Assembly: GCA_944358895.1 (NCBI GenBank)
Contig: CALVSB010000002.1
Coordinates: forward strand, 2,969-66,968
Source: an uncultured Bacilli bacterium
Lineage (GTDB): Bacteria; Bacillota_I; Bacilli_A; RFN20; CAG-826
Reading direction: 5' to 3'
Length of the DNA stretch: 64,000 nucleotides
This document shows positions 7,742 through 38,767 of the stretch, in pieces. The notes under the pieces were generated by a model. It saw only the letters and a program-made list of their open reading frames with translations, did not search any database and was not told the origin of the DNA. Each line of letters begins with the position of its first letter. Within the stretch, counting starts at the first letter, position 1. Made by a program: the position numbers and the translations under genes.

Positions 7742-7746
7742 AAAGG

Positions 7747-14373: not shown

Positions 14374-14432
14374 TTGTTGAAAAACAAATATCCCGTTCTA
14401 TAGTGGCAAAGCATCAAGAAAGGAAAACACAC

Positions 14433-17041: not shown

Positions 17042-20000
17042 TTAGGCCGCGACCCAGCTAATCGTCTGGTAACCAGTGACGGTCGCCGTGCCGATAACGG
17101 TTCCGTAGGCCGTGACTTCCATCACCGTTCCTTCGGCTTCAAGCGAAGTCCCTTCGACGAATTCGAGCTCGACCGTCGGAAGGAATTCGCCCTCGACGAT
17201 CGCGCCATAGACCCGGCCTGGGTTCGGTCCGATGTCGGTCATGACGGAGATGAGGGTGACGCCAGTGCCGACCGTCCAGTCGGCCGTCTTAGCGTATTGG
17301 GCGTCGATATTGCCGGAGTTATAGACGGACTGGTACTTGCTCAGGTAATACGGTCTATCGGTGCCTTCCCGAATGATAAGGGCGTTCCCATTCTGATCGA
17401 CGGTGACATCGTAGATGCCGGCCGTGAAGTTCAGGATGCCGCGCGCCTCGTCATAGCTGTTGATGACCGGGACGGCATCGACAGTCTTGCCCTCCCAGCT
17501 GAATTCGTCGGAACCGACGCCGAACTTGTAGTAGCTCGAGCCAGCCAGGGTTCCGATGTAGGTTCCCTGCGCCCAAGCATAGTCGGTGGAGAAGATGCCG
17601 ATGTTCTGCTCGAGAGTAAGGACCACGTCGGCGCCGGTCTCGGAATCGACGGCAATGACGTAGTCGGTCCCGGCTTCGAGCACGTACTTGAGCACGCCGG
17701 TGCCGGTGGCAAGCTCGGTTTGGCCAAGTCCGTCGTAGAGGGTCAAGGCCGCGTCGGGATCGCTCGCCGTAAGCTTGGTGTCCATGCTCGTTTCAGCCGT
17801 GAAGCGAGCGTAGGAGACGGTCTGCCCTTCGACCGGCTGGACCGTAATCGTCCCGTCGACGATGGCGACGTCAGAGGCAAAGGCCGGAGTGAAGCCCGGA
17901 ACGCCTTCGGCCATGAGGAAGGTGAAGGAACTCGTCGAGGTTCCGCCAGTATAGCCGACCTCGATGGTGTAGGTGCCCGGTTCGAGCCGGAGATCGAGTT
18001 CGACCTCGGTCCCGTAATAGACATCCCACCAATCTTCTTCGCCCTCTTCGACCACGGAGCCGAGTTCATTGCCCTCGGCATCATAGACGATGATCTGCTT
18101 GGCGTAGTACTCGGTGCCGCCGTCGAGGATCAAACGGTAGAGGGCCGTTTCCTCGACCGTGATCTCGTAGAAGTGCGAGCCTTCGTAGAAGGTCGAGACG
18201 GTAATCGGCTCGCCCATCGTAAGGCTCAGGGCTTCGTTGACTTCCGGCGACGTCATGAGGAGGCCGTCGGGCGGCACGCCGATCGTCACGTAGCTTGAGG
18301 TTTCGCCCGCGGCGTACTCCTCGAACTCGTTGTCGTAGAAATTGCTCGAGAAGACGAGGTAGTAAGTGCCGGCCAGATCGAGGTCCTCGAAGAGCTGCAC
18401 GGCTTCGGTCGTCGCGGAGCTGGCGCTGAAGTCAGCGACTTCCTCGCCCGCCTCGTCGTAGATCGTCACGCTCGTGTAGACTCCATCCTCCCCGCCGATG
18501 GTGATGGCCGTCGGCAGTTCCGGGATGGTATTCGGCATGATCTTGTAGACGGCATAGGCCTCTTTCGTCCCGTTCCAGTTGATCCGGGTCTTCGCTTCGT
18601 AGTCGAGAGCGACCGCTTCGTCGGCGGTGTCGTTTTCGGCCGTCGTGATCTCGACCGGGATCTTGCCGTAGAGGACGTCATCGGGGTCGTAGCTGCTGTA
18701 GTAGCCGGTAACGCCGAGGTAGACGGTCTCGCCTTCAAGAAGGTCAAGCGTCCAGATGGTGCTGTAGCTGCTCTTGCGGTGCGGCACCAGGTGGTCGACT
18801 TCGTAAGTCGCCGAATTGACGGTCGTGAGTTCCGTCTTGTCTTCGCCATAAAGGAAGAGATAGGGCTCGTCCTTGGTGTAGGCGGTCGTCGACTCTTCGT
18901 CAATGTCGTAAGGCTTGCCGAGGCTGATGTAGTAGCGGTCGTCGGCCTGGGCCGTGAACTTCAGGTAGTAGACTTCCATGCCCGGGACGGTCGAGGCGTC
19001 GCCCTTGAAGGTCGCTCCTTCGATGACGAAGGGGTCGTCGAGCGAATTGCCGGCCGGGAACGCGGTCCAATAGGCGTGGAGAGTCACGTCGGCTTCCACG
19101 GTATAGGTAGCCATGTCGAGCGGCTCCGGATTCTCGAGGTCGAGGACCCAGCCCGCCATGAAGTAGCCGTCTTTCCGGGGTTTCGGAACATTGGGCACCG
19201 TCCGTCCGACAATGACGTCCATCACGATGTTTTCGTTCGTCTCGGCTCCGTCGACGACGGCCGTGCCGCCGTTGAGGTCGAAGGTCACCGTCGCGACTTC
19301 GGTATCCGAGCAGATCGTCCAGTCGGAGACGATGTGGTTGCCCGGGGCCGCGGCCGTGAGGGCCGCCCACTCGGCTTCCGTTCCCTCGTAGGTAATCCGG
19401 ACGATGAGGCCGTCAGAGGTGAAGAGGGCCATCTGCGGAAGGGCCGTGACCGTATAGGGGACGACGAACTCGTTGACCGCGGTCCGGATGCCCGACTGGA
19501 TGCTCGTGAGGTTCGAAGCCTCGAAGAGGATGCGGTTGATGCTGGTGCTACTGCCGAAGCAGCTTGACCCGATCGTCACAAGGCTGGACGGGAAGTTGAC
19601 CGTGCCGGCGATCTTGGTTCCCGAGAAAGCCCAGCGGTTGAATTCCACGATGGTGTCCGGAAGGGTCACGTTGCCGAGTCCACTCTTGTTTTCAAAGCAG
19701 CCGTTGGTGCTGTCGATATCGCCGGCAGTGACGACCTTGCCGAGCGATTCGGCCAGGTGGTCTTCCTCCGGGACGAGCGACCAGACAAACGGGGCAACGA
19801 CGATGTCGCCGGTACCGCCCCCATAGAAGTAGTAGTCGCCGTAGTAGGTGTCGCCTTCGTCTTCGTACTTGGTGTAGGTGACGCTTCCGACCGTCGGGTC
19901 GCCGAGAACGCCCCAGACATTGGCCCGGTCGTCCAGCGAATCAACAAGCCCGCCGGCCAAGTCGTAAGTCTTGAGGGAGACGTCGATCTCGCTCCACCAG

Positions 20001-20470
20001 TTGGCCTCCGGGATATTGTTGATGGTGTACGTCATGTAATAGTAGGTCTTCCCTTCCTCGAGAGGGGTCGTCCATTGGACGTCCGCGGCCCGAGGCAGCT
20101 CAGTGTAGACATACTTGAGGTCAAAGCTCGCTTCTTCCTTGATGACGGCATCGGCTTCCTTGACGCTTCTCGTCCAGGTCGCCTTCGAGAGGCCTTGATA
20201 GCCGTCGATGGCCGCGACGAAGCGGATGGCCTTGTTTTCCCCGACGTCGGTCACGTCGATCCCGAGGACCGGATGGGCGGTGTCGACTTCGTTGGCTTTC
20301 TTGACATGATTGCCGAAAGCAATCGCCCGGCCTCCGTCTTCGGTCGTCACGATTTCGTCTTCAAGAAGCGGGTCCGCCTCCGGCGCCCGGTCAGCCGTCA
20401 CGGCGACGATCAGGCCGAGGGCCATGGTCGAAAGAAGAAGGAAAGGGACGGTTTTGCGTGTGTTTTTCAT
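17042..20470 (-). CDS. 1142-aa secreted mosaic surface protein: BspA-type leucine-rich repeats, Listeria-Bacteroides (Flg_new) repeat, four PPC-like modules
   Basis: Signal peptide MKNTRKTVPFLLLSTMALGLIVAVTA. LRR-like segment NVTLPDTIVEFNRWAFSGTKIAGTVNFPSSLVTIGSSCF. Flg_new-like segment VTFDLNGGTAVVDG...RKDGYFMAGWVLD...VTLHAYW. Four modules of about 110 aa end in GETVYLGVTGYY, GTYYLVFSS, GTYTIEVGY and TDYVIAVDS, typical of pre-peptidase C-terminal domains. Confidence 0.75.
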   Translation of the reverse strand: MKNTRKTVPFLLLSTMALGLIVAVTADRAPEADPLLEDEIVTTEDGGRAIAFGNHVKKANEVDTAHPVLGIDVTDVGENKAIRFVAAIDGYQGLSKATWTRSVKEADAVIKEEASFDLKYVYTELPRAADVQWTTPLEEGKTYYYMTYTINNIPEANWWSEIDVSLKTYDLAGGLVDSLDDRANVWGVLGDPTVGSVTYTKYEDEGDTYYGDYYFYGGGTGDIVVAPFVWSLVPEEDHLAESLGKVVTAGDIDSTNGCFENKSGLGNVTLPDTIVEFNRWAFSGTKIAGTVNFPSSLVTIGSSCFGSSTSINRILFEASNLTSIQSGIRTAVNEFVVPYTVTALPQMALFTSDGLIVRITYEGTEAEWAALTAAAPGNHIVSDWTICSDTEVATVTFDLNGGTAVVDGAETNENIVMDVIVGRTVPNVPKPRKDGYFMAGWVLDLENPEPLDMATYTVEADVTLHAYWTAFPAGNSLDDPFVIEGATFKGDASTVPGMEVYYLKFTAQADDRYYISLGKPYDIDEESTTAYTKDEPYLFLYGEDKTELTTVNSATYEVDHLVPHRKSSYSTIWTLDLLEGETVYLGVTGYYSSYDPDDVLYGKIPVEITTAENDTADEAVALDYEAKTRINWNGTKEAYAVYKIMPNTIPELPTAITIGGEDGVYTSVTIYDEAGEEVADFSASSATTEAVQLFEDLDLAGTYYLVFSSNFYDNEFEEYAAGETSSYVTIGVPPDGLLMTSPEVNEALSLTMGEPITVSTFYEGSHFYEITVEETALYRLILDGGTEYYAKQIIVYDAEGNELGSVVEEGEEDWWDVYYGTEVELDLRLEPGTYTIEVGYTGGTSTSSFTFLMAEGVPGFTPAFASDVAIVDGTITVQPVEGQTVSYARFTAETSMDTKLTASDPDAALTLYDGLGQTELATGTGVLKYVLEAGTDYVIAVDSETGADVVLTLEQNIGIFSTDYAWAQGTYIGTLAGSSYYKFGVGSDEFSWEGKTVDAVPVINSYDEARGILNFTAGIYDVTVDQNGNALIIREGTDRPYYLSKYQSVYNSGNIDAQYAKTADWTVGTGVTLISVMTDIGPNPGRVYGAIVEGEFLPTVELEFVEGTSLEAEGTVMEVTAYGTVIGTATVTGYQTISWVAA

Positions 20471-20485: not shown

Positions 20486-21175
20486 TTACCACTCTTCGAC
20501 GATGCCGCCTTCGCCGGTCACGACATTGATCGGCTCAACCTTGATGTCGATCGTCATGTCGGCCTCGCCCATCGTTACGGTGAGGACTCCGTCGGCCAAG
20601 GAGGCTTCCTCTCCGTCGACGGTGATTTCGATGATGCGGTATTCCTCGTCGACTTCGACGGTCAACTCGATGACCTCGCCAGCCACGCCGGTAAGGTTGC
20701 CGTCCACGGTAACGACATCCGGAGCGGTGACGATAATGTCGTGAAGTTCGGCCGTCGCGATGACGATGGTGGCGTTCACGTCCGGCATCGTGAACGTGAT
20801 CTTGCCGTCCACGATTTCCACGGCCTCGCCATTCAAGGTAGCTCCCGTGATGCGGTAGTCGGCCTCGGCCGTTACCTCGATCGTCACCTCGTCCCCAGCC
20901 TTGGCCTCGGCCGGGCCGGTCGTCGTAATGTGTTCGCCTTCGATGGCAATCGCGTAGGTCGCGACCGTCGAAGAAGCGATTTCGCTATCCGGCGTCGAAA
21001 CCACCGGTTCGCTGCTCGAATCGGGCGCGGGAATTTCCGAAGAGGCTACTTCCGAGGTTCCTTCGGAACCGCCGGTTGAAGTTACCGGTCCTGACGACTC
21101 AGTCACTTCTCCGCACGACGCGAGCAAGGCGAGAAGCCCCAAAACAAGGACTCCCTTTATTTTCTTGCCTTTCAT
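20486..21175 (-). CDS. lipoprotein with three tandem beta-domains of about 55 aa (divergent InlB B-repeat-like)
   Basis: ORF 20486..21289 trimmed to ATG 21175. MKGKKIKGVLVLGLLALLASCGE lipobox and an S/T/E linker. Repeats include ITGATLNGEAVEIVDGKITFTMPDVNATIVIA and IIEITVDGEEASLADGVLTVTMGEADMTIDIK. Lies 15 nt upstream of the 1142-aa gene. Confidence 0.7.
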   Translation of the reverse strand: MKGKKIKGVLVLGLLALLASCGEVTESSGPVTSTGGSEGTSEVASSEIPAPDSSSEPVVSTPDSEIASSTVATYAIAIEGEHITTTGPAEAKAGDEVTIEVTAEADYRITGATLNGEAVEIVDGKITFTMPDVNATIVIATAELHDIIVTAPDVVTVDGNLTGVAGEVIELTVEVDEEYRIIEITVDGEEASLADGVLTVTMGEADMTIDIKVEPINVVTGEGGIVEEW

Positions 21176-21432
21176 TGTCGAAAGACTCCTTTCTTCCGGA
21201 TGGCAAATGGCGCGCAAGGAACTCCGGAGCAATCGCATGGCGCCAGGCCCCAAATAACCTCCCCCCACGGGCCTCGTATGGGGGCACAATATGAAAGATT
21301 GTCAAATTTTCAATAAAAAGGTGCATATGTTTAATGAAAAGTGAAAAGTCAGCCGTCCATCGAAAAAATTTTAAGTAAGTATCTAAACATTTTGATTGAC
21401 ATGAAGCGTTCTTGACCTAGTCTTGACGCGCG

Positions 21433-22328: not shown

Positions 22329-25106
22329 ATGAAAAAAGCCAACAAAGCCCTTCTCGTCGCCTTGCTCGGAGCCGGTCTCACCCTAGCTTCCTGCGGAGGG
22401 ACGGAAACTTCGTCTTCGACTCCGGCGGAAAGCACGACGACTTCCGCTTCCTCGGAAGCCGAAGCCTCTTCCGAGACCCACGGGGAATCTTCCTCGGAGT
22501 CGGTCTCCCTCCCTGATTCGAGCGATACCTCCTCGACCCCGGATGTCGTCGAAGACTACCTCGTCGACATTGTCGAGACGACCGGCGTCCACATCACTTC
22601 GAACCTCGAAAGAGCCAAACCAGGCGACACTGTCACTTTGACCGTCACCGTCGATCCGGGCTACGTTCTCACTTCCCTTACAATGAACGGCGAGACCCTC
22701 ACGGCGAATAGCGACGGCACTTATTCCTTCACGATGCCGGACCGCGATGCGAAGATCCGGGCCACCGTGACGGTCGAAGGCGAAGTGACGATCGGCGGCT
22801 CGGTTTCCGCGGCCTTCACCGAAAACGGCGACGGGACCTGGACCGCCCGAAACGTCGAAATCCCGGCGGCCGGCGGCCAGATTTACATCCGGGTCAGCCC
22901 CAAAGGCGGAACCTCCGACCTTCTCGGCTATAGCGACCTCGACATCTACAAGTGCTTCGGGAACATCACCTACTACTATTCATCCGACACGGACATCGGC
23001 TCGGTGGCCGAAGACCTCGGCATCCAGGTGAGCGAGGACAAGGGCCGCGGCTCCTTGATCCTCCTCGGCGGCAATGCAGCCTATGACATTACCTACGACC
23101 CAGCCGCGGAACTCAAGCTTTCGGTCCAGCGGACGAAGGTGACTTCCCTCCCGACGACCTCCGAGCAGCTCTACAGCCTCTTCGACGGCTCGGTCCTGAG
23201 CGAGGCCCCGACTTATCCGGCAGGCGTTACGGGAGTCGACTACTACGATTCGGCAGCCGGCGTCAACGGCGAGGACTACCACTACGTCAAATACGCGGAC
23301 GGCTCCTCCCACGCGACGGTCAAGGACCACGACACCGGCGAGACAACCGCGAATGTCTACAAGGAAATCGTGACCAAGGACGGGCGAAAGCAGCTCATCG
23401 TCGTCGACAACTATCTCCGGGGACGGACCTATACCGACCTGAGCGGCGGGACCGCTTCCCTCGAAGGCGATAGCCTCGCCGCGGCTGACGTCGAGGCCTA
23501 TAGCGGCCGTTACGACATTGTCGACGCGGTCGCGGAAGGCTACAGCCGTTACCAATACGACGAACGCGACGCCGCCTTCTTGGCCGGGAGCTACGACCAC
23601 ACCATGCGGGAAATCGACATGGTTCAGTACCAAGCCTACCGCCACTCCTTCGAAATCGCCGACGATCTTATCCGGACCGAACTCGACATCGTCCCGACGA
23701 AGCACGAAGACGGGACCTTCACCGTCACCATCGACTCCCTCAAGGAATGGAACCCGAGCGCTTCGGGCACCATCTACAACACGATGGATGTCGACACGGT
23801 CGGCACTTGGCACGTCGAGATGACCTTCACCGAGGCCGGCGCCATCCTGAACGGCTCTTACCTCCTCAAGAAGTACACGGCGACCAATTACAATTTCAAG
23901 ACTCACGAGTTCATCGGCGATCCGGAAACGACTGGGACCGTCCTCCGGGAACTCCGCTACTCCTATACCTACGGCGAGGCCGCGGCCAATCCGCACGACT
24001 TCGACTACACGCCTTATTTCGCCACCTCGATCGACCCCTACATCGAAGTGACGGACGGGGAGCGGAACGTCCTCTCGGCCGGCTGGAATTCGATCGAAGA
24101 CGAGGATTCGATCCACATCAATCCTTCGCCCTCGACGGCTCTCGATGCCTGGCAGTACGGCATCATCGGCTCCGACAACCCCGACATCTGCCGGAACGAA
24201 GACGGCAACCCGACGGCCTACCAGATGTACGGTACCGGGGCGGTGACCCTCACCTTCGGCAACCACACCGACAATTCGGTCACCGGTTCGGTCGAGGTCA
24301 CGATCGACGGTTCGACCTTCCATAGCCTTGCCTGGATCCCCTACTACGAAGGCGGCATCTACTCCGACGAGAACATCATCACGGCCAGCAACCTCCAGAT
24401 CTACGGCAACAGCAGCCACACCGTCACCCTTTCGCCGACGCCCAATAACGGCACCCTCTTCGGCCTCGAATGGACGAGCGACCACGAAGGCCTCATCGAC
24501 CTCGACCTCGACGCGGCAACCGGCCGCTGCACGGTCACGGCCCTCAAAAACATCGCGGAAACGACGACCGTCAACCTCACCTTTACCTCGCCCTACATCG
24601 ACAATGTCGACGGCGAGTGCGTCCTCCAAGTTACCGTCGTCCCGGGAAGTGGCGAAGAGGTCTCGATCGCGACCTTGGCCGGGACCTATCGGGTCGAACT
24701 CGGCGAAGACACGACCGGCTACGACGAAAGCGACCCGACGGTCCTCACTTTGACCGCCGATCCGTCCAAGGACCACGAAGGGGCCTATGAAGCGACGATC
24801 GAGATGTTCGACGAAGACGCCACCTTCAAAGTCGGCTTCGACTATACCTACGATCCTGACAACTTCGCCCTCAAGGTCGTCTCCGGCAGCGCGGAGCTCC
24901 TGAGCGGGTCGCTCGGCTCCTACGACGATATTACCGTCAGCCTCAACTTCGAGATCACGACCGGCAAGGTAGGCGTCTATCTTGCGACCGAGACTTACGA
25001 CTGGAACAGCTACGGCGCGACGATCACGCCCTACCTCGGCGAATACACCGACGAGGAGGATTACTCCTACATCTCGGCTTACGTCTTCTTCGTCAAAGTC
25101 GAATAA
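22329..25106 (+). CDS. 925-aa lipoprotein, N-terminal InlB B-repeat-like module, remainder unknown
   Basis: MKKANKALLVALLGAGLTLASCGG lipobox and an S/T/E linker. The module VLTSLTMNGETLTANSDGTYSFTMPDRDAKIRATV resembles the repeats of 20486..21175. Lies 12 nt after the preceding gene. Confidence 0.75.
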   Translation: MKKANKALLVALLGAGLTLASCGGTETSSSTPAESTTTSASSEAEASSETHGESSSESVSLPDSSDTSSTPDVVEDYLVDIVETTGVHITSNLERAKPGDTVTLTVTVDPGYVLTSLTMNGETLTANSDGTYSFTMPDRDAKIRATVTVEGEVTIGGSVSAAFTENGDGTWTARNVEIPAAGGQIYIRVSPKGGTSDLLGYSDLDIYKCFGNITYYYSSDTDIGSVAEDLGIQVSEDKGRGSLILLGGNAAYDITYDPAAELKLSVQRTKVTSLPTTSEQLYSLFDGSVLSEAPTYPAGVTGVDYYDSAAGVNGEDYHYVKYADGSSHATVKDHDTGETTANVYKEIVTKDGRKQLIVVDNYLRGRTYTDLSGGTASLEGDSLAAADVEAYSGRYDIVDAVAEGYSRYQYDERDAAFLAGSYDHTMREIDMVQYQAYRHSFEIADDLIRTELDIVPTKHEDGTFTVTIDSLKEWNPSASGTIYNTMDVDTVGTWHVEMTFTEAGAILNGSYLLKKYTATNYNFKTHEFIGDPETTGTVLRELRYSYTYGEAAANPHDFDYTPYFATSIDPYIEVTDGERNVLSAGWNSIEDEDSIHINPSPSTALDAWQYGIIGSDNPDICRNEDGNPTAYQMYGTGAVTLTFGNHTDNSVTGSVEVTIDGSTFHSLAWIPYYEGGIYSDENIITASNLQIYGNSSHTVTLSPTPNNGTLFGLEWTSDHEGLIDLDLDAATGRCTVTALKNIAETTTVNLTFTSPYIDNVDGECVLQVTVVPGSGEEVSIATLAGTYRVELGEDTTGYDESDPTVLTLTADPSKDHEGAYEATIEMFDEDATFKVGFDYTYDPDNFALKVVSGSAELLSGSLGSYDDITVSLNFEITTGKVGVYLATETYDWNSYGATITPYLGEYTDEEDYSYISAYVFFVKVE

Positions 25107-30633: not shown

Positions 30634-30662
30634 AAAGCAAAAGCCCGGCGGAAAACCGGGCT
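30634..30662 (-). terminator. rho-independent terminator after clpB
   Basis: Minus strand reads AGCCCGG-ttttccg-CCGGGCT followed by TTTGCTTT. Confidence 0.7.
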
Positions 30663-30667
30663 TCGCT

Positions 30668-32779
30668 TCATTTGAGGAGCAAACCTTCTTTCTTGTCGAA
30701 GGAAAGGACGTACTTCTTCTCGGTCGAGAGGCTTCCCTCCACGATCTTCGTCGCGAGGAAGGTCTCGATTTTGTCGGAGATGAAACGCTTGAGCGGCCGC
30801 GCCCCGTATTTCGGGGTGTAGGCGGCATCGAGCACATAGTCGACGAGCGATTCGTCGAAGTCGACGGTGTAGTACCTCTCGGCGAGACGCTTCCCGAGTT
30901 CGGAGAGCATCTTCTTGACGATGAGGCGCTGCATCGACTTGTCGAGCGGGTTGAAGTAGACGATCTCGTCGATCCGGTTGAGGAATTCCGGCTTGAAGGT
31001 CTGGTGAAGGAGCGGCTCCACCATTTCCCGATGTCCCTCGAGGATATAGTCGCTCCCGAGGTTGCTCGTCATGATGATGATGGTGTTCTTGAAGTCGATG
31101 AGGCGGCCTTGGCTATCGGTCAAGCGGCCTTCGTCAAGGATCTGAAGAAGCAGGTTGTAGACCTCCGGGTTGGCCTTTTCGATTTCGTCGAAGAGGACGA
31201 TCGAGTAAGGATTCCGGCGGACCTTTTCCGTCAGCTGGCCTCCTTCTTCATAGCCGACATAGCCAGGCGGGGCTCCGATGAGGCGGCTGACCGAGTATTT
31301 TTCCATGTACTCGGACATGTCAATTCGGATGATGTTGTTCTCGTTGTCGAAGAGAGCTTCGGCCAAGGCTTTGCTGACCTCGGTCTTGCCGACGCCGGTC
31401 GGCCCGAGGAAGAGGAAGCTCCCGATCGGGCGGTTCGGGTTTTGGATCCCGGCCCGCTGACGGAGGATGGCGTTCGAAACCAAGGTGATGGCTTCGTCCT
31501 GGCCGATGACCCGCTTCTCGAGGGTCGACTTGAGATCGAGAACCTTTTCGCGGTCCCCTTTCTCGATCCGGCTCACCGGGATATTGGTCATCCTAGAGAC
31601 GATTTTGGCAATGAGGTCTTCGTCGACCACCTCGTTGACGAGACGGTCTTCGTCCTTCCCCTTGGCCGCGATGGCGTTCAGCCGCTTCTCCATCTCCGGG
31701 ATCGTTTGATACTGGAGACGGGAAGCATTTTCGTAATCGCCATGCGCGAAATACGTCTGCAAATCGAACTTGGCTTTCTCGATTTTGCCCTTGAGGTCCT
31801 TCGCGTCCTTGATCTCGGCCTTCTCGACTTCCCACTTCTTGGAGAGTTCGTCGAATTTGGCTTTGCAGTTCGCTAGTTCCTTTTCGAGGTCCTCGAGGCG
31901 GCGTTTGCTCGACTCGTCGGTTTCCTTCTTGAGGTTGACCCGCTCGACCTCGAGCTGACGCATCTTGCGGTTGACCTCGTCGAGCTCGACCGGCATCGAC
32001 TCGATCTCGACCTTGATGGTCGCGCAGGCTTCGTCGACCAGGTCGATAGCCTTGTCGGGGAGGAAGCGGCTGGTGATGTAGCGGTTCGAAAGGACGGCGG
32101 AGGCGACGAGCGCTCCGTCGGTAATCTCGACGCCGTGGTAGGACTCAAAGCGTTCCTTGAGTCCCCGCAGGATCGAAATCGTATCCTCGACCGTCGGCTC
32201 GCCAACCATCACCGGCTGGAACCGCCGCTCGAGCGCGCGGTCCTTTTCGATGTAGTTGCGGTACTCGTTCAGGGTCGTGGCCCCGATGCAGTCGATCTCG
32301 CCGCGGGCCAGAAGGGGCTTCAGCATGTTTGATGCATCCATGGCCCCGTCGGTCCGTCCGGCCCCGACGATGAGGTGAATTTCGTCGATGAAGAGAATGA
32401 TCTTGCCGTTGCTGTCCTTGATCTTGTTGAGGACGGCTTTCAGCCGTTCCTCGAACTCGCCGCGGTACTTCGCGCCGGCCAAAAGAGCTCCCATGTCGAG
32501 CTCATAGACTTCCTTGTCCTTTAAAGAGGAGGGGACGTCGTCTTTGACGATCCGTTCGGCTAGGCCTTCAACGATGGCCGTCTTGCCAACGCCCGGCTCG
32601 CCCAAAAGGATGACGTTGTTTTTGGTCTTGCGGGCCAAAATCTGGATGACTTTCCGGATTTCGTCGTCGCGCCCGATGACGGGGTCGACTTTGCCCTTTT
32701 TGACGTCTTCGTTGATGTTGCGACCGAACTTCTCGAGGATGTTCTCGTCGTTTTGATAATCCATCATTCCGTTATCCAT
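30668..32779 (-). CDS. clpB: AAA+ disaggregase ClpB lacking the N-terminal domain
   Basis: Two Walker A motifs ([16 protein letters not shown]). Coiled-coil middle domain ([19 protein letters not shown]...) between NBD1 and NBD2. The protein starts only about 25 aa before the conserved [12 protein letters not shown]. 703 aa. Confidence 0.9.
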
Positions 32780-32857: not shown

Positions 32858-33208
32858 TCAATTGTCGTCGGTCTCGATCTCGGAAATCTCGAATTCGGTC
32901 CCGTCGATGGTATCGAAATCGTCCATGGACCCGCATTTGGGGCATTTCCGGTCGTTTTCGGCAATCGCGAAGACGAAGCCGCATTGGCGGCAGCGCCCGT
33001 GCGCTTTCGTCAGATTCAGCTTCAGGGAGCAGTCTTTGTAAGGGGTATCGGCTTTCGCCGCTTCCCAGCAATCCAAAAGGAAACGGGGGACGACCATCGA
33101 GGCCTCCCCCACATCCAAGGTAATGGAAGTGATGTGGCTCACTCCCTCTCGTTTCAAAAGGTCATCGAGCGTCGACATGAGCTCGAAGCATAGACCCATC
33201 TCGTGCAT
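32858..33208 (-). CDS. hypA: nickel insertion metallochaperone HypA
   Basis: 116 aa. MHEMGLC N-terminus (MHE Ni site) and Zn ribbon CRQCG...CPKCG. Confidence 0.85.
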   Translation of the reverse strand: MHEMGLCFELMSTLDDLLKREGVSHITSITLDVGEASMVVPRFLLDCWEAAKADTPYKDCSLKLNLTKAHGRCRQCGFVFAIAENDRKCPKCGSMDDFDTIDGTEFEISEIETDDN

Positions 33209-33210
33209 GG

Positions 33211-36057
33211 CTAGCGGATCGTTTCCTTCTTCTCGTCCTGAGAGTCGAGGTCGTCTTTGTTGACCAGCTTGGATTTTCCCTTGCCAGTGAAGACGATCTT
33301 GAGGTTCCGGGAGAGGAGGTGGGGCGCGGCGTTGACCGTCGCCTTTTCATAAACGACCCCTTGGGCATCGAAGCGCCGCTCGAGATGGATGGCATCGAAT
33401 TCGCAACGGGTCGTGCAGAGGCCGCAGCCGACGCACATCGTCTCGTCGACATAGGTCCGCCCGCACTTGAGGCAGCGGCCCGCTTCTTTCTTGGCCTCGG
33501 CCTCGGTGAGAAGGACGCGGTCGTCTTTCATCTCGTCCTCGCCCTTGGCCCGCTTGACCTCGACCCGCGGAGCGTTGTCGAAGCCCTGGACGACGATGTT
33601 GTCCTTATCGAGCATGTAGGAAGCGAGGTACGGGTTCTGAGCCCGGCCGATCGTGAGCGATTGCCCCGGATGGACATGCCGATGCATCGATTCGGCGGCT
33701 TCGTGGCCGGCCGCGATGGCGTCGATCACGAAGCGGGGGCCATAGTAGCAGTCGCCGCCGGTGAAGATATCGGGATCGTCAGTCTGGAAGGTGAGCCCGT
33801 CGGCTTTGATCCGGCCCGACTTCGTGAGGGCGCAGGACGTAGTCTCGAGGAGATGACCCCACTCGCAAACTTGGCCGATGGCCGAGATGAAGTAGTCGCA
33901 TTCGACTTCTAGGAGGTCGTTCTCGTCGTAAGAAGGATTGAAGCGGTAATTCTCGTCGTAGACCGAAACGCACTTCTTGAGGATGGCTTTCTTAAGGACG
34001 CCTTTTTCGCCTTGGAACTCTTTGACGCCCCAGCCGTTATGGATGATGATGCCCTCTTCCTCGGCTTCGTCGATTTCTTCCTTGGCGGCCGTCATGATGT
34101 TCCGGCTTTCAAGGCAATAGAGGTCGACGGCCGAAGCTCCGTAACGGATGGCCGTCCGTGCCACGTCGATGGCGACATTGCCGCCGCCCATGACCGCCAC
34201 GCGGCCGCGGAGGCGCGGGGCTTTGCCAAGGTTTACGCCCTTGAGGAAGGCAACGCCCGAAAGAATACCCTGGTTTTCTTCCCCGGCTACCCCGAGCTTC
34301 CGGCTTCCCTGAGCTCCGATGGCCAGATAGAAAGCTTGGTAGCCCTCATTCTTCAGCTCTTGGATGGAAACGTTCTTTCCGACCTCAACCCCGGTTTTGA
34401 ACTCGACCCCAAGGTCGCGGAGGACGTCGATTTCGGCTTCGACGACTTCCTTTTCGAGGCGGAAGGACGGGATGCCAAGCGTCAGCATGCCGCCGAGGCG
34501 GTTCTCCTTTTCGAAGACAGTGACCGAATAGCCCATGGCTGCGAGGTAATAGGCGCAGCTGAGACCGGCCGGGCCGCCGCCGATGACGGCCATCTTGATA
34601 TGGTGGAACTCCGGGTGCTCAATTCGCGGCAAAACCCGGCTCTTTTTGTTCAAATCGAGTTCAGCGACATACTTTTTGACCTCGTCGATCGAGACCGCTT
34701 GGTCGATGCTTCCCCGGGTGCAGGCATCCTCGCAGCGCTTGTTGCAAACGCGGCCGCAGACCGCCGGGAACGGGTTCTTTTTCTTGATGAGGCGAAGCGC
34801 GTCTTCGTATCTACCCTCGCGGGCCAATTCGAGATAGCCCTCGATGGCGATATGGGCCGGGCAGGCGACTTTGCATGGAGCGGTCCCCGTTTCGGCCATG
34901 ACATAGTCGCGGTTATAGCGGTAGTCGGGGTTCCACTTGTCGCTTCCCCACTTGTGGTCGAAAGCGCTTAGCGGCGTCTTGATCTTGATCGGCTTCTTGT
35001 TTTCTAGCCGTTCGCCGAGCTTGAGGGCGTTCATCGGGCAGGCTTCGACACATTCGCCGCAGGCCACGCATTTGTCGGGATCGATTTTGGAGATGTAGTT
35101 GCTCCTGATCATCGTGGCGGTATGGAAATACTCGCCCGTCCGGAGGGAGAAGCACGAGCAGCCGCAGCAATTGCACATCGCGTGGGTGGATCCGGGGCCG
35201 TCGGTATTCGGCATCTCGTGCATGAGGCCGTTGTCCTCGGCCTTCTTCAGGATCTCGTAGCATTCTTCCTTGCTGATCCGCCTTCCGCGCCCGGCATGGA
35301 TGAAAGCCCGGGCTGCCTCGTTGAATTGGATGCACATATCATCTTCAAGGTGGCCGCAGCCTTCGCCTTGGATCCGCCTGGCCACCCGGCAGGAACACGG
35401 GGAAACGCAAATGTCGGTCGCCGTTTCAACGTAATGGGAAATCTCTTCGTCGACCGTGTGCTTCGGGTCGTCCTTGATGGCACTTTCGATCGGAATGACC
35501 CGCATGACGCCGCCGCCGACCGGGAGGTTGCCCGCCAGCGGCATGATCCGCTTGATCGTGTATTCGTTGAAGGCCTTTGGGATTTCCGGATGGGCCTCGG
35601 CTAGCTTCACATTGTCGACCAGGCATTCCATGATGCCAGGGACGAAGATCGGGATCCAATAGCCACCCTGCTTCTGATTGTTCTTGTCGGGCCCGGCTTC
35701 CGGATCCTCGGGGTCGAACATCAGGATGCCCGTCATCGCGAGTTCCTTCAGCATCGGTTCGACTTTTTCGACCGGCATTTTGTTCTTCTTCGCGATATCC
35801 TCGAGGGTGTAGTGCTTCCGCAGCTTCATCGAAAGGACGAGCTTGGCTTCGTCGTCGCTCACGCAGCAAGCCAGGGCGTTGTACTCGGGGTCGCCGGCAA
35901 TGACCTTGACCCCGGGCAGGGTCTGGATGTGGTTGGCAAGCCTCGTAATGAGCTTCCTTTCCTTCTCGCCGGAAGGCAGGACGTTCTTTACCGGGCCGTC
36001 CTTATAGACTCCCTCGGCGTAGTCCTGTTTGTCGACGCGATACTTTTTCTCGTCCAT
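33211..36057 (-). CDS. 948-aa multidomain Fe-S flavoprotein: Cys-rich N-terminal module, 4Fe-4S ferredoxin motifs, GltD-like NAD(P)H/FAD oxidoreductase domain, C-terminal ferredoxin motif
   Basis: Cys clusters CVSPCSCRVARR...GCGH...MC and CNCCGCSC. Ferredoxin motifs CVACGECVEACP and CVGCGLCTTRC. GltD-type Fe-S motif CGRVCNKRCEDACTRG. Dinucleotide folds VIGGGPAGLSCAYYL and VMGGGNVAIDVA, plus FTGGDC. Confidence 0.75.
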   Translation of the reverse strand: MDEKKYRVDKQDYAEGVYKDGPVKNVLPSGEKERKLITRLANHIQTLPGVKVIAGDPEYNALACCVSDDEAKLVLSMKLRKHYTLEDIAKKNKMPVEKVEPMLKELAMTGILMFDPEDPEAGPDKNNQKQGGYWIPIFVPGIMECLVDNVKLAEAHPEIPKAFNEYTIKRIMPLAGNLPVGGGVMRVIPIESAIKDDPKHTVDEEISHYVETATDICVSPCSCRVARRIQGEGCGHLEDDMCIQFNEAARAFIHAGRGRRISKEECYEILKKAEDNGLMHEMPNTDGPGSTHAMCNCCGCSCFSLRTGEYFHTATMIRSNYISKIDPDKCVACGECVEACPMNALKLGERLENKKPIKIKTPLSAFDHKWGSDKWNPDYRYNRDYVMAETGTAPCKVACPAHIAIEGYLELAREGRYEDALRLIKKKNPFPAVCGRVCNKRCEDACTRGSIDQAVSIDEVKKYVAELDLNKKSRVLPRIEHPEFHHIKMAVIGGGPAGLSCAYYLAAMGYSVTVFEKENRLGGMLTLGIPSFRLEKEVVEAEIDVLRDLGVEFKTGVEVGKNVSIQELKNEGYQAFYLAIGAQGSRKLGVAGEENQGILSGVAFLKGVNLGKAPRLRGRVAVMGGGNVAIDVARTAIRYGASAVDLYCLESRNIMTAAKEEIDEAEEEGIIIHNGWGVKEFQGEKGVLKKAILKKCVSVYDENYRFNPSYDENDLLEVECDYFISAIGQVCEWGHLLETTSCALTKSGRIKADGLTFQTDDPDIFTGGDCYYGPRFVIDAIAAGHEAAESMHRHVHPGQSLTIGRAQNPYLASYMLDKDNIVVQGFDNAPRVEVKRAKGEDEMKDDRVLLTEAEAKKEAGRCLKCGRTYVDETMCVGCGLCTTRCEFDAIHLERRFDAQGVVYEKATVNAAPHLLSRNLKIVFTGKGKSKLVNKDDLDSQDEKKETIR

Positions 36058-36060
36058 CCT

Positions 36061-36735
36061 TCACTCCTCCTTGTAGGTTTTGACGAGCCCCAATAGATAG
36101 GTGGCTAGGTCGTCGATTCCTTCGCCCGTCTTGGCCGAAACCGGGAAGAAGCGGGCCTTGGAATTGAGGCGCAGGATGTTTTCCTTTGCCTGGTCGATGG
36201 AGAAATCGAAATATGGCAAGGTGTCGATCTTCGAAAAGACGAAAGTCGAGCAGACCTTGAACATCAAGGGATATTTGAGGGGCTTGTCGTCGCCCTCGGG
36301 AACGGAAAGGATGTTAAGACTGGAGACAGCACCGGTGTCGAATTCGGCTGGGCAGACTAGGTTGCCGACGTTCTCGAGGATGACGAGGTCGAAGCCTTCG
36401 ATCCCGAGGCCATCGAGACCCTCCTTCGTCATTTCGGCATCGAGGTGGCAGGCTCCGTTGGTGTGGAGCTGGATCGTTTTGACCCCGGTTTTCTCGCTGA
36501 TGGTCTCGGCGTCGAGGGCTCCGTCGATGTCCGCTTCCATCACCGCAATCTTAATTTGGTCCTTGAGCTTATTGATCAAAGAGACGAGGAGGGTGGTCTT
36601 ACCGCTGCCGGGAGAGGACATGACGTTGAGTAAATAGACGCCTTTCCCTTTTAGGAAGTTACGAAGTTCCTCGGCCCGCTTTTCGTTATGGGAAAAAACG
36701 GATTCCTTGACGCTGATAACCTTGAACTTATCCAT
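36061..36735 (-). CDS. hypB: nickel metallochaperone GTPase HypB
   Basis: SSPGSGKTTLL P-loop and ENVGNLVCPAEFD, a HypB/UreG-type motif. 224 aa. Lies 3 nt upstream of the oxidoreductase start. Confidence 0.85.
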   Translation of the reverse strand: MDKFKVISVKESVFSHNEKRAEELRNFLKGKGVYLLNVMSSPGSGKTTLLVSLINKLKDQIKIAVMEADIDGALDAETISEKTGVKTIQLHTNGACHLDAEMTKEGLDGLGIEGFDLVILENVGNLVCPAEFDTGAVSSLNILSVPEGDDKPLKYPLMFKVCSTFVFSKIDTLPYFDFSIDQAKENILRLNSKARFFPVSAKTGEGIDDLATYLLGLVKTYKEE

Positions 36736-36816: not shown

Positions 36817-37455
36817 TCAATCGGTAAGTTCGTCGACGAAACGATAAGCCGACAAATAGTCGTCAAAGACGACTACTTTCGGGGCAGCGCCTTTTCCTTT
36901 GACCATGAATAGGTGGCTCGGGCGGCCGTTGTGTTTCAAAAAGGTCTTTACAAAGTCGCCCCCGTAAGCCCCCGTCATGGAAAATGTATCGTCTTTTGTC
37001 ACGGCCACTTCCACGAAGCCGAAAGCTTCGCGGTAGAGTTTAGGAAGCGGCGACTTTTCCTTGTCACCGGCAATGATGCAAACGAGTTTCGTCGCTCTTT
37101 CTGCGGCGAAAGGCCCGATCATTCTCGCGAAGCCGCCCCATGGCTCGTTGGAGAATAGAGACATCATCCAACCGGTGCGACCGATGGCGAAGCCGGCTTT
37201 TCCATCATCCAAGAGAAAGCAATTCGCTTTTTCATAATCGTTGTCGGAGGCCGGAGCCAGAAAATCCCCGTGGAGAAGATACTCTCGGTTGATGGTGAGA
37301 GCTTCGGAAAAGGCCTTGCCGGCTACGAGGCGAAGCTCCTTTTTCCCCTCTGGCGTCAATAATTCGAGGAGAGACGGGCCCCTAGCCAAAGACTGGACGA
37401 TAGCCGCTTTCTCGGCGGGAAGGGCAGTTTTAACATGCCAGGCTCTGCTAATCAC
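36817..37455 (-). CDS. hypothetical protein (possible GNAT-like fold); start uncertain
   Basis: ORF 36817..37656 cannot use its first ATGs because they lie inside the TPP riboswitch and the thiT start on the other strand. GTG 37455 is the first plausible start. The core FAIGRTGWMMSLFSN...LYREAFGFVEVAV is acetyltransferase-like by eye only. Confidence 0.4.
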   Translation of the reverse strand: MISRAWHVKTALPAEKAAIVQSLARGPSLLELLTPEGKKELRLVAGKAFSEALTINREYLLHGDFLAPASDNDYEKANCFLLDDGKAGFAIGRTGWMMSLFSNEPWGGFARMIGPFAAERATKLVCIIAGDKEKSPLPKLYREAFGFVEVAVTKDDTFSMTGAYGGDFVKTFLKHNGRPSHLFMVKGKGAAPKVVVFDDYLSAYRFVDELTD

Positions 37456-37639: not shown

Positions 37640-38767
37640 ATGGAACATGTCGTCACCCCATCCGAAAAAAAGAAAGGCTTTGACTACGAAGGCTTCGTCA
37701 AGAAATGGCTTTGGCTCATTGCCATCGTCTTCGCGGCCATCGTCTTCATCGGCCTCGCCTTCCCCCAGTTCGAGGCCAACGCAATCGAAGTGACTGGCGG
37801 GCCGATCGTCGTCGACGGTGAAACGACGAGCGGATACACTTTCACCGCCCTCGACGAAGTCGAATATGGTTTCGGGGCCCTTTTTGCCAACGGCGGCAAC
37901 TGGATGGTCCTCTGGCTCTATTTCCTGCCGCTTATCTCGTTGATTTTGCTCATCATATCCCCGTTTTGCGGCAAATATTCGGCTTGGCTTTCCCTTACGG
38001 CAGCCATGACGAGCCTCGTCGCCGGCATTCTCTTCTTCATTTCGCCGACCCTCTTCGCTTATGGCGAATGCTGGCAAGCCATCGGTAACGACATTGCCCT
38101 CGATTGGGGCGACCCGGGCTTTATCTATCTAGACGCGGCGGCCCCGCAGTTCCTCCCGGGAACGATCGTCATCGCTTCCCTCTCCCTTCTATCCTCGCTC
38201 ATCAGCTTCTCACTTTCGACGAGCCTCGTCTCCATCAGCATCCGGGACATCTCGGAAATTGGCATTCTCTCGGCCCTCGCCATCGCCCTCCAGTTCATCA
38301 AGATCCAGGTCGGCGCTGACGGCGGATCGATCAACCTGGGCCTCGTCCCTCTTTGCATGATTGCCCTCCGGCACGGCCCGACCAAGGGATTCATCGCCGG
38401 TGGCCTTGTCTACGGCATCATCACCTGCCTCACCGACGGCTATGGTTTCCAGACCTACCCCTTCGACTACCTCATCGGCTTCGGCTCGGTGGCCGAGGTC
38501 GGCTTCTTCTCGAAGCTTGCCTTCAAGGGTGAAGAGGGATGGAACCCCCTCGGCTTCCTTTATGTCTTCATCGGCGTCGTTTTGGCCACGGCCGTCCGTC
38601 TCGTCGGCTCCACCATTTCCTCGATGGTCATCTATGGCTACGATCTCGTCGCGGCCCTCGCCTACAACGGGGTCTACATCCCGGTCACCGGTCTTGTCAC
38701 CCTCGTCTGCCTCGAGGCCCTCTACGTCCCGATTGCCAAGGTGAACAAAATATTCCCGGTCAAATAA
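37640..38767 (+). CDS. thiT: ECF-type thiamine transporter S component (ThiT-like) fused to an N-terminal membrane extension of about 190 aa
   Basis: The C-terminal 185 aa (IGILSALAIALQFIKIQVGADGGSINLGLVPLCMIALRHGPTKGFIAGGLVYG...) match the ThiT pattern. It is controlled by the TPP riboswitch. The N-terminal half has about four further TM segments. Confidence 0.65.
   Translation: MEHVVTPSEKKKGFDYEGFVKKWLWLIAIVFAAIVFIGLAFPQFEANAIEVTGGPIVVDGETTSGYTFTALDEVEYGFGALFANGGNWMVLWLYFLPLISLILLIISPFCGKYSAWLSLTAAMTSLVAGILFFISPTLFAYGECWQAIGNDIALDWGDPGFIYLDAAAPQFLPGTIVIASLSLLSSLISFSLSTSLVSISIRDISEIGILSALAIALQFIKIQVGADGGSINLGLVPLCMIALRHGPTKGFIAGGLVYGIITCLTDGYGFQTYPFDYLIGFGSVAEVGFFSKLAFKGEEGWNPLGFLYVFIGVVLATAVRLVGSTISSMVIYGYDLVAALAYNGVYIPVTGLVTLVCLEALYVPIAKVNKIFPVK

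What the first reader, a model, noticed from the sequence alone, without database searches (positions are those of the whole stretch)
32858..36735. hypB / 948-aa Fe-S flavoprotein / hypA packed as one unit, with no known nickel enzyme gene in 64 kb
Seen in the sequence: hypB (36061-36735), a 948-aa Cys-rich oxidoreductase (33211-36057) and hypA (32858-33208) lie on one strand, separated by only 3 nt and 2 nt. Established knowledge: HypA and HypB are Ni-delivery chaperones for [NiFe]-hydrogenase large subunits, and in Helicobacter also for urease. They normally travel with hypCDEF and the structural genes. None of hypCDEF, a hydrogenase, urease, CODH or LarA is visible in this window. The sandwiched protein combines three parts. 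The first is an unusual N-terminal module of about 330 aa with CxxCxC and CNCCGCSC clusters. The second is a pair of ferredoxin CxxCxxCxxxCP motifs. The third is a GltD-like NAD(P)H/FAD domain. Inference: either this protein is a previously unrecognised client of the Ni chaperones (a new Ni- or mixed-metal redox enzyme), or it supplies electrons for metallocentre maturation elsewhere in the genome.
Basis: partly seen in the sequence, partly recalled or inferred. Interest (0 to 1): 0.7.

Follow-up and report, generated by a model that had tools for sequence, protein, structure and literature searches.

The report
IsrA-type reductase flanked by nickel chaperones
The hypB / 948-aa flavoprotein / hypA cassette is real and widely conserved, but it is an ordinary member of the "putative isoprene/diene reductase" (IsrA) family, which a 2023 paper already proposed, without biochemical proof, as a new nickel-dependent enzyme served by HypA/HypB.

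Summary
hypB (36061-36735), a 948-aa Fe-S flavoprotein "X" (33211-36057) and hypA (32858-33208) lie on the minus strand with 3-nt and 2-nt gaps, and no known Ni enzyme or hypCDEF was found in the 64 kb.

The arrangement is not chance. Of 64 informative reference-genome loci from several phyla, 57 have hypA and/or hypB within 3 kb of the X homolog, and 31 show the exact hypB-X-hypA order.

It is not new. Kronen et al. 2023 (PMC10134865) described this family as IsrA, the isoprene-induced putative isoprene reductase of Acetobacterium wieringae. They reported the same HypA/HypB/DUF5692 co-occurrence and proposed the Cys-rich N-terminal site as the nickel acceptor. In the papers I could search, this was still untested in 2026.

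Added here:
- The Cys-rich core (residues ~125-325) has no Pfam model and no relative in the PDB by sequence or fold.
- Chaperone linkage persists in variant enzymes lacking C234/H236/C298/C300, so the shared candidate site narrows to C221, C223, C242, C295, C297, C302, H280 and E274.

The substrate of this gut-lineage copy is unknown. Verdict: a new member of a known, uncharacterised kind.

The parts
36061..36735 (-). hypB: Ni-metallochaperone GTPase of the short type. It has no His-rich stretch and no N-terminal CxxCGC motif. P-loop SPGSGKT; Cys96-His97 and Cys128 form the CH...C Ni/Zn motif.
   Evidence: TIGR00073 218.7 bits (cut-off 121.2) and PF02492. Motifs read from the sequence.
33211..36057 (-). 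X: 948-aa IsrA-family Fe-S flavoprotein, a putative NAD(P)H-dependent (diene) reductase.
   Evidence: Domain scan. 48-81% identical full-length homologs in 80 genomes. Architecture and motif positions map onto the published IsrA with a constant +41 offset.
35713..35895 (-). X residues ~55-115: winged-helix-like sub-domain of the N-module.
   Evidence: AF2 model with pLDDT >90 in this stretch. Only weak Foldseek hits, to MarR/TFE-type winged-helix folds (E 0.015-0.3).
35083..35685 (-). X residues 125-325: Cys-rich core, the putative catalytic and metal-acceptor domain. Invariant in 81 genomes: C221, C223, R224, R227, C234, G235, H236, C242, E274, H280, C295, N296, C297, C298, C300, C302, R306.
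   Evidence: Alignment A3. No Pfam family. Profile search of PDB sequences gave 0 hits at E<=10. AF2 pLDDT 86.8, Foldseek best E=2.6.
35020..35088 (-). X residues 324-346: ferredoxin-type [4Fe-4S] motif C330-x2-C333-x2-C336-x3-C340-P.
   Evidence: PF00037. The Cys are nearly invariant.
34648..34884 (-). X residues 392-470: DPD domain II / NfnB-type domain that binds two [4Fe-4S] clusters.
   Evidence: PF14691 75 bits. PDB sequence hits 9bov, 9n5u, 8oh5 and 5jca over residues 390-870.
33706..34596 (-). X residues 488-784: FAD/NAD(P)H-binding GltD/NfnB-like domain.
   Evidence: PF07992 98.9 bits. NF009410 428.8 bits over residues 383-892, below that subfamily's cut-off of 516.
33379..33474 (-). 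X residues 862-893: C-terminal ferredoxin-type motif (C862, C865, C875-x2-C878-x2-C881-x3-C885).
   Evidence: PF14697 weak hit at 870-893. Cys positions. Matches the second ferredoxin site reported for IsrA.
32858..33208 (-). hypA: Ni-metallochaperone with the N-terminal Met-His-Glu Ni motif and a Zn site formed by CRQC(73-76) and CPKC(89-92).
   Evidence: PF01155 97 bits. Below the TIGR00100 equivalog cut-off. Motifs.
36817..37455 (-). 212-aa ORF 81 nt upstream of hypB on the same strand. It is lineage-specific and matches no family. [quoted passage not shown]
   Evidence: Called as a gene in L001-L005. No Pfam or NCBIfam hit. Absent from all 80 other loci.
30640..32779 (-). clpB (30668-32779), 78 nt downstream of hypA, followed by the first strong terminator-like hairpin (30664-30640). 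This is context and a possible 3' end of the transcription unit.
   Evidence: Pfam AAA/ClpB domains. Terminator scan found none on the minus strand between hypA and clpB.

Best explanation
X belongs to the IsrA family of large, cytoplasmic, oxygen-sensitive Fe-S flavoproteins ('putative isoprene / conjugated-diene reductases').

Proposed mechanism:
1. NAD(P)H reduces FAD in the GltD/NfnB-like domain.
2. Electrons pass along a chain of four ferredoxin-type [4Fe-4S] clusters: two in the Fer4_20 domain and two formed by the 330-340 and 862-885 motifs.
3. They reach a Cys-rich metal site in the N-terminal core domain, where a small, probably hydrophobic, unsaturated substrate is reduced.
4. The co-translated HypB (GTPase) and HypA (MHE-motif Ni carrier) load nickel into that N-terminal site. 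X is therefore their client, not a [NiFe]-hydrogenase or urease.

Shown here: the domain architecture, the invariant residues, the conserved gene linkage, and the absence of known Ni enzymes nearby.
Taken from the literature: induction of the orthologous operon by isoprene in organisms that reduce it.
Inferred only: nickel in the site, the direction of electron flow, and the substrate class. The substrate of this particular gut-lineage copy is unknown.
For: Domains.

Linkage in reference genomes: of 64 loci with at least 1.5 kb on each side, 38 have hypA and hypB, 15 have hypA only, 4 have hypB only and 7 have neither. The canonical hypB-X-hypA order occurs in 31. The median distance from the X match to the hypA match is 46 nt.

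Other recurrent neighbours are DUF5692 membrane proteins and GntR/AraC-type regulators. No hypCDEF or Ni enzyme recurs.

Variant enzymes also carry the chaperone genes: hypA-hypB after X, cobW-cobW-hypA after X and hypA alone. In human-gut metagenome contigs, every locus with a complete variant gene and at least 400 nt of downstream sequence has hypA immediately downstream.

The 3-nt and 2-nt gaps and the embedded RBS point to translational coupling.

Literature:
- PMC10134865: the IsrA operon proteins rise by 6-11 log2-fold with isoprene; that genome lacks [NiFe]-hydrogenase; among 988 homologs HypA co-occurs at 0.73, HypB at 0.56 and DUF5692 at 0.40.
- bioRxiv 10.64898/2026.02.25.708027: Pelotomaculum hypA and hypB transcripts rise 373- and 585-fold with isoprene.
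- PMC12509576: the same cluster is present in a 1,3-butadiene-reducing strain.
Against: - No metal analysis of any family member turned up in the literature I could search. Nickel is inferred only from the chaperone genes.
- 7 of 64 loci have neither chaperone gene nearby.
- A special [4Fe-4S] cluster alone, as in IspH, could in principle do this chemistry.
By analogy with other family members, identity is probably only about 45-50%.
- The rest of this organism's genome could not be checked for a [NiFe]-hydrogenase, urease or CODH.
- This window lacks the DUF5692 and GntR/TetR neighbours common elsewhere.
Confidence: 0.7

Rival explanations
1. HypA/HypB mature a conventional Ni enzyme encoded elsewhere ([NiFe]-hydrogenase, urease, CODH). 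X merely shares the operon, for example to supply reducing power for metallocentre assembly.
For: HypA and HypB are canonical hydrogenase/urease chaperones. Pelotomaculum, which has an IsrA-like gene, also has [NiFe]-hydrogenases. The rest of this genome is unseen.
Against: The tight X-hypA/hypB linkage persists across several phyla, and no hypCDEF or hydrogenase genes recur in +/-10 kb. A. wieringae ISORED-2 has the operon but no [NiFe]-hydrogenase, and its other Ni enzymes have their own maturases. The neighbours are substrate-type regulators and a membrane protein, which is typical of a catabolic operon.
Confidence: 0.1
2. The HypA/HypB paralogs next to X do not deliver Ni. They deliver or gate another metal (Zn, Fe, Co), or they act as a GTP-dependent assembly factor for an unusual all-iron Fe-S cluster in the Cys-rich site. 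X would then be an Fe-S-only reductase with IspH-like or heterodisulfide-reductase-like chemistry.
For: HypA scores below the TIGR00100 equivalog cut-off, so it is a diverged subfamily. The universal site is six Cys plus His and Glu, and CxC motifs are known Fe-S ligands, e.g. in ferredoxin:thioredoxin reductase. CobW/HypB-class GTPases serve several metals (established knowledge).
Against: HypA keeps the Met-His-Glu Ni-binding N-terminus and HypB keeps the Cys-His...Cys Ni site. HypB passes the HypB equivalog threshold.
Confidence: 0.15
3. The N-module is a sensory or DNA-binding module (a winged helix plus a redox-sensing Fe-S cluster), which would make X a regulator or redox sensor and not a catalyst.
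For: Residues ~55-115 resemble MarR/TFE-type winged helices.
Against: The Foldseek hits are weak (E>=0.015). The module is fused to a complete NAD(P)H-FAD-4x[4Fe-4S] electron-delivery chain. IsrA is among the most strongly induced proteins under isoprene (log2 fold change 10.7) and is the only redox candidate for isoprene reduction.
Confidence: 0.03

Closest known systems
IsrA, putative isoprene reductase of Acetobacterium wieringae ISORED-2 / strain Y, and its 'clade 9' homologs (Kronen et al. 2023, PMC10134865; 'putative diene reductase cluster', PMC12509576)
   Same: - About 900 aa with the same order of modules: unannotated Cys-rich N-terminal domain, Fer4, DPD domain II, FAD/NAD(P) domain, C-terminal Fer4.
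- Two CxC motifs 74 residues apart: IsrA C180/C182 and C254/C256 correspond to X C221/C223 and C295/C297.
- The first Fer4 motif has the same +41 offset.
- hypA and hypB are adjacent.
   Different: - Gene order: hypB-X-hypA here, against isrA-hypA-hypB-ferredoxin-hypA in A. wieringae.
- This window has no second hypA, no stand-alone N-module ferredoxin, and no DUF5692 or TetR/GntR neighbour.
- X has about 41 extra N-terminal residues.
- The host is an uncultured gut Bacillota lineage, not an acetogen.
- The substrate is unknown and need not be isoprene.
- Direct identity to IsrA was not measured.
NfnB / GltD / DPD-PreT-type NAD(P)H:FAD + 2[4Fe-4S] electron-input modules (PDB 5jca, 4ylf, 6s6s, 1h7x, 9n5u; fused forms in formate dehydrogenase 8oh5 and 9bov)
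   Same: Residues 390-870 align to these with E 1e-45 to 1e-87. As in YgfK, AegA, DPD and the NADPH-dependent FDH, this module feeds electrons to a separate catalytic domain.
   Different: The catalytic partner here is the N-terminal Cys-rich domain, which has no relative among solved structures. It is not a molybdopterin, flavin/pyrimidine or glutamate-synthase domain.
HypA/HypB-dependent Ni insertion into [NiFe]-hydrogenase (and urease in Helicobacter)
   Same: The same two chaperones with their metal-binding motifs intact.
   Different: No hypCDEF, no hydrogenase large subunit or endopeptidase, and no ureABCEFGH appear in the window or recur in 80 related loci. The presumed acceptor is a different protein.
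Ni-Fe-S active sites of CODH (C-cluster) and acetyl-CoA synthase (A-cluster)
   Same: Only a conceptual resemblance: a Cys-rich site at the end of an Fe-S wire, with a CxC-type motif that could bridge Ni to a cubane. This comes from memory of the ACS Cys-Gly-Cys motif and is a lead, not a test.
   Different: No sequence or fold similarity. Those enzymes use CooC/AcsF-type maturases, not HypA/HypB.

Membership tests
IsrA-type ('clade 9') putative diene reductases | About 900-aa single polypeptide: unannotated N-terminal ~270-320 aa + Fer4 + PF14691 + PF07992 + C-terminal Fer4 | tested here: met
   compared with the description of IsrA.
IsrA-type ('clade 9') putative diene reductases | Cys-rich 'cluster V' site with two CxC motifs (IsrA C180/C182 and C254/C256) | tested here: met
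   C221/C223 and C295/C297 have the same 74-residue spacing and a constant +41 offset. They are invariant in 81 genomes.
IsrA-type ('clade 9') putative diene reductases | hypA and/or hypB within a few genes | tested here: met
   Immediately adjacent on both sides. 57 of 64 informative homolog loci show the same.
IsrA-type ('clade 9') putative diene reductases | Direct full-length sequence similarity to VUZ27132.1 and placement in its clade | not tested
IsrA-type ('clade 9') putative diene reductases | Reduction of isoprene or a conjugated diene; induction by the substrate | not testable with these tools
   Needs culture or enzyme work. Even for IsrA the activity is inferred from proteomics.
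IsrA-type ('clade 9') putative diene reductases | Frequent but non-defining DUF5692 membrane protein and TetR/GntR regulator nearby | tested here: not met
   None in the window by tblastn. Present in 23 and 17 of the 80 related loci.
GltD/NfnB-like NAD(P)H-FAD-2[4Fe-4S] module | PF14691 plus PF07992 above their gathering scores, with homology to solved NfnB/GltD/DPD chains | tested here: met
   75.1 and 98.9 bits. PDB E-values from 1e-87 to 1e-45.
HypA | PF01155 above gathering score; N-terminal Met-His-Glu; two CxxC forming the Zn site | tested here: met
   97 bits. MHE, CRQC73 and CPKC89.
HypA | NCBIfam equivalog TIGR00100 cut-off (88.1 bits) | tested here: not met
   66.5 bits: a diverged HypA subfamily.
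HypB | TIGR00073 equivalog cut-off; P-loop; Cys-His...Cys metal site | tested here: met
   218.7 bits against 121.2. SPGSGKT, C96-H97 and C128.
Known Ni enzymes ([NiFe]-hydrogenase, CODH/ACS, urease, LarA, MCR, Ni-SOD, glyoxalase I, ARD) | Sequence or fold similarity of the presumed acceptor domain to any of them | tested here: not met
   No Pfam or NCBIfam hit for residues 1-320. PDB profile search gave 0 hits at E<=10. Foldseek against the PDB gave no hit at E<=1e-3.

The most novel reading that the evidence does not exclude
The N-terminal core of X and its relatives is a catalytic domain with a fold that has no solved relative. It would carry a HypA/HypB-installed Ni (or Ni-Fe-S) centre ligated by the universally conserved set C221, C223, C242, C295, C297, C302, H280 and E274. 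That would make the family a new class of nickel enzyme that uses NAD(P)H to hydrogenate unactivated or conjugated C=C bonds. The gut-lineage copy in this window would act on a diet- or host-derived unsaturated compound, not on isoprene. The idea is already published as a hypothesis. What would be new is the proof, the ligand set and the substrate range.
Probability: 0.5. Interest if true: 0.8.

Novelty: new member of a known kind. Interest (0 to 1): 0.45.

Why it matters
If nickel is confirmed, the IsrA family would be a new class of Ni enzyme, and the first HypA/HypB client other than hydrogenase and urease. Its chemistry, biological hydrogenation of non-activated dienes, is relevant to the isoprene budget, to pollutant (1,3-butadiene) turnover and to biocatalysis.

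The family is widespread in anaerobes, including human-gut bacteria, so its substrates may include dietary or host compounds. This window adds one more example, in an uncultured gut Bacillota lineage, with the compact hypB-X-hypA core cassette seen in 31 of the 64 informative homolog loci. That cassette is convenient for heterologous co-expression.

Tried and rejected
1. Structural or sequence analogues of the N-module. Two AF2 models (pLDDT 82.8 and 86.8) searched with Foldseek against the PDB, and a profile of 81 core sequences searched against PDB sequences and Pfam, found nothing beyond a weak winged-helix match. The idea that it resembles the ACS/CODH, FTR or HdrB CCG domains therefore stays an untested recollection.

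2. Hypothesis that C234/H236/C298/C300 form the Ni site. These residues are present in the 9-Cys type and absent in variants. If they formed the site, chaperone linkage should be lost in the variants. It is not, so the hypothesis is rejected.

3. NiCo riboswitch or other RNA element near the cassette. Rfam found only the SRP RNA, far away.

4. Stand-alone ~360-aa N-module proteins. Three were sampled and none had hyp genes nearby, but two lay on short contigs, so this is inconclusive.

5. The many homologs of about 550-620 aa. A selenocysteine stop was considered but not pursued. tblastn gives contiguous full-length matches in genomes, so most are contig-end fragments.

6. P0061, which reads from X into a HypB C-terminus, is most likely a frameshift or assembly chimera and not a true fusion.

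8. The Opp/Nik-family ABC transporter at 2.5-11.6 kb was considered as a Ni importer. No NCBIfam model assigns its binding protein to Ni, so it is left open.

Full report
**1. The observation**

| Gene | Coordinates | Length |
|---|---|---|
| hypB | 36061-36735 | 224 aa |
| X | 33211-36057 | 948 aa |
| hypA | 32858-33208 | 116 aa |

- The intergenic gaps are 3 nt and 2 nt. A strong AAGGAGG ribosome-binding site lies inside the end of hypB, which points to translational coupling.
- HypB passes its NCBIfam equivalog threshold (TIGR00073, 218.7 vs 121.2 bits).
- HypA passes Pfam PF01155 (97 bits) but not the TIGR00100 equivalog cut-off (66.5 vs 88.1).
- Both keep their metal motifs. HypA has Met-His-Glu at the N-terminus and two CxxC. 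HypB has the P-loop and Cys96-His97...Cys128. It is the short type, with no His-rich or CxxCGC N-terminus.

Domains of X:
- Residues 1-320 match no Pfam or NCBIfam model.
- A ferredoxin motif lies at 330-340.
- The DPD-domain-II dicluster domain covers 392-470.
- The FAD/NAD(P) domain covers 488-784.
- A second ferredoxin-type motif lies at 862-885.
- PDB sequence matches cover only residues ~390-870: NfnB, GltD, DPD, and NADPH-linked formate dehydrogenase.

**2. The window**

Pfam scans of the other large ORFs, plus the precomputed annotation of an identical metagenome contig, show no hydrogenase, urease, CODH, LarA or hypCDEF.
- The cassette sits between a lineage-specific 212-aa ORF with no family (81 nt upstream) and clpB (78 nt downstream).
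- The first terminator-like hairpin on that strand follows clpB.
- Rfam finds no riboswitch.
- The closest relatives of X are in uncultured gut Bacillota: Ca. Alloenteromonas pullicola, 'Mollicutes' UMGS1337 and Bacilli MAGs.

**3. Is the arrangement meaningful?**

A scan of one genome per species returned 80 loci with an X homolog (43-81% identity over the N-module used as query). Going by the record titles, they come from:
- Clostridia, Bacilli, Negativicutes and Erysipelotrichaceae;
- Spirochaetota (Treponema, Sphaerochaeta, Leptospirales);
- Acholeplasmataceae and Izemoplasma;
- Leptolinea, Owariibacterium, Desulfobacterales and others.

Of the 64 loci with at least 1.5 kb on each side:

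| hypA / hypB within 3 kb of X | Loci |
|---|---|
| both | 38 |
| hypA only | 15 |
| hypB only | 4 |
| neither | 7 |

- 31 loci show the exact hypB-X-hypA order on one strand.
- The median distance from the X match to the hypA match is 46 nt.
- Clustering all flanking ORFs gave only three other recurrent neighbours: a DUF5692 membrane protein (23 loci), a GntR/FadR-type regulator (17 loci, mostly divergent upstream) and an ABC ATPase (18 loci).
- Smaller clusters were a FecCD permease, flavodoxin-Fer4, MBL-fold, PDR-type reductase and AraC. None was hypCDEF or a known Ni enzyme.

**4. It is already described**

A full-text search for HypA + HypB + FAD-dependent oxidoreductase, and separately for DUF5692, led to a single paper: Kronen et al. 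2023, mSystems (PMC10134865). Its main points:
- In an isoprene-reducing Acetobacterium wieringae, a five-gene operon is strongly induced by isoprene: a 901-aa FAD-dependent oxidoreductase (IsrA), hypA, hypB, a 350-aa ferredoxin, and a second hypA.
- That genome has no [NiFe]-hydrogenase, and its other Ni enzymes have their own maturases.
- About 900-aa 'clade 9' homologs occur in Firmicutes, Spirochaetes, Tenericutes, Chloroflexi, Bacteroidetes and others.
- Among 988 homologs, HypA co-occurs at 0.73, HypB at 0.56, DUF5692 at 0.40 and TetR at 0.21.
- The authors explicitly propose that IsrA is the nickel acceptor, at a 'cluster V' Cys6 site containing two CxC motifs (C180/C182 and C254/C256).

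X has the same modules in the same order. Its CxC motifs (C221/C223 and C295/C297) have the same 74-residue spacing, and the first ferredoxin motif has the same +41 offset. I therefore file X in this family, with one caveat: I could not obtain the IsrA sequence for a direct alignment.

Later work:
- The same cluster is reported in a 1,3-butadiene-reducing strain (PMC12509576).
- hypA and hypB transcripts rise 373- and 585-fold in isoprene-reducing Pelotomaculum (bioRxiv 10.64898/2026.02.25.708027).
- No paper in the searchable library reports purification, metal analysis or a structure.

**5. What I could add**

(a) The N-module is a broad superfamily.
- An exhaustive search found 1,473 representative clusters at E<=1e-3, including stand-alone proteins of about 360 aa.

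(b) The N-module has two parts.
- A confidently predicted winged-helix-like sub-domain covers residues ~55-115.
- A Cys-rich alpha/beta core covers residues ~125-325.
- Model quality was pLDDT 82.8 for residues 1-390 and 86.8 for the core alone.
- The core has no Pfam family, no PDB sequence hit with a profile of 81 sequences even at E<=10, and no Foldseek hit better than E=2.6.

(c) In 81 genomes the core keeps nine invariant Cys and other invariant residues.
- Cys: 221, 223, 234, 242, 295, 297, 298, 300, 302.
- Others: H236, H280, E274, R224, R227 and R306.

(d) The candidate site can be narrowed.
- Across the wider superfamily, one variant group lacks C298 and C300, has Asp or Glu at position 236, and is variable at 234. 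It keeps C221, C223, C242, C295, C297, C302, H280 and E274.
- I tested whether chaperone linkage tracks the extra residues. It does not.
- Variant enzymes are followed by hypA-hypB, by cobW-cobW-hypA or by hypA alone.
- In 80 human-gut metagenome loci of the variant type, every locus with a complete gene and at least 400 nt of downstream sequence has hypA directly after it.
- If the chaperones load a metal into this domain, the ligands should therefore come from the shared Cys6/His/Glu set.

(e) Three stand-alone N-module proteins showed no hyp neighbours.
- One sits beside two glycyl-radical enzymes.
- The sample is too small to conclude anything.

**6. Mechanism**

Best reading (confidence about 0.7): NAD(P)H -> FAD -> four [4Fe-4S] clusters -> N-terminal metal site, which reduces a small unsaturated substrate, with HypB and HypA installing Ni in that site.
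- Shown: the architecture, the conservation and the linkage.
- Inferred: nickel, the direction of electron flow and the substrate class.

Rivals:
- The chaperones serve another Ni enzyme elsewhere (about 0.1).
- They handle a different metal or assemble an all-iron cluster (about 0.15).
- The N-module is a sensor (about 0.03).

The substrate of this copy is unknown. It lacks the DUF5692 and regulator neighbours and lives in a gut lineage, so isoprene is not assumed.

**7. Verdict**

- Novelty: a new member of a known, biochemically uncharacterised kind.
- Interest is moderate (0.45). The family is an unresolved candidate for a new nickel enzyme class, but this window only rediscovers it.

Noticed in passing
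window 2522-11608 (-): Five-gene Opp/Dpp/Nik-family ABC transporter: two ATPases with oligo_HPY domains, two BPD_transp_1 permeases (one of 691 aa) and an unusually large 896-aa SBP_bac_5 binding protein. This family includes nickel importers, but no NCBIfam model assigns the binding protein to any substrate.
   Followed up: partly
L091:1053-8182 (locus of P0231): A stand-alone 367-aa N-module + Fer4 protein, with all nine Cys of the X core, lies directly after two tandem glycyl-radical enzymes (PFL-like) and before an SDR, with no hyp genes within 6 kb. The same Cys-rich domain may therefore serve other, chaperone-independent systems.
   Followed up: no
L042, L071, L010: Some genomes carry two X paralogs in one locus: L042 has X, hypB, a second X and hypA; L071 has X, hypA, hypB, a partial X and a second hypA; L010 has two convergent copies. 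This suggests duplication and substrate diversification.
   Followed up: no
L087:8820-10469 (locus of P0156): A variant X (S234, E236, A298, G300) is followed by two consecutive CobW/HypB-type GTPase genes and then hypA.
   Followed up: no
P0061 (alignment, columns ~575-700): A database protein reads from the X flavin domain straight into a HypB C-terminus (ENVGNLVCPAEFDTG...). This is probably a frameshift or assembly chimera of adjacent genes.
   Followed up: no
window 37640-38767 (+): 375-aa membrane protein transcribed divergently from the cassette. The ThiT/YuaJ ECF S-component domain occupies only residues ~200-365, behind a ~200-aa N-terminal extension with no family match, and it scores below the ThiT equivalog cut-off.
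   Followed up: partly
window 11803-16376 (+), 17042-20470 (-), 20486-21289 (-), 22329-25106 (+): A run of large ORFs. Three are probable surface proteins with Listeria-Bacteroides (Flg_new / Flg_new_2) repeats, one of them also with BspA-type LRR repeats. Two others, of 856 and 657 aa, have no Pfam match.
   Followed up: no
window 62395-62480 (-): Bacterial small SRP RNA (RF00169, 48.4 bits), just downstream of the seryl-tRNA synthetase gene (62562-63842).
   Followed up: no
window 49616-52338 (+) and 55625-56527 (-): A TldD/PmbA metallopeptidase pair with overlapping ORFs, and a pseudouridine-5'-phosphate glycosidase-like gene (Indigoidine_A, 420 bits).
   Followed up: no
L024 (CAVGWF010000018.1) and L026 (CAVFCI010000010.1): Contigs labelled 'Escherichia coli' and 'Hallerella sp.' carry X homologs nearly identical in architecture to Oscillospiraceae ones. 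These 'cleanbin' records are probably mis-binned.
   Followed up: no
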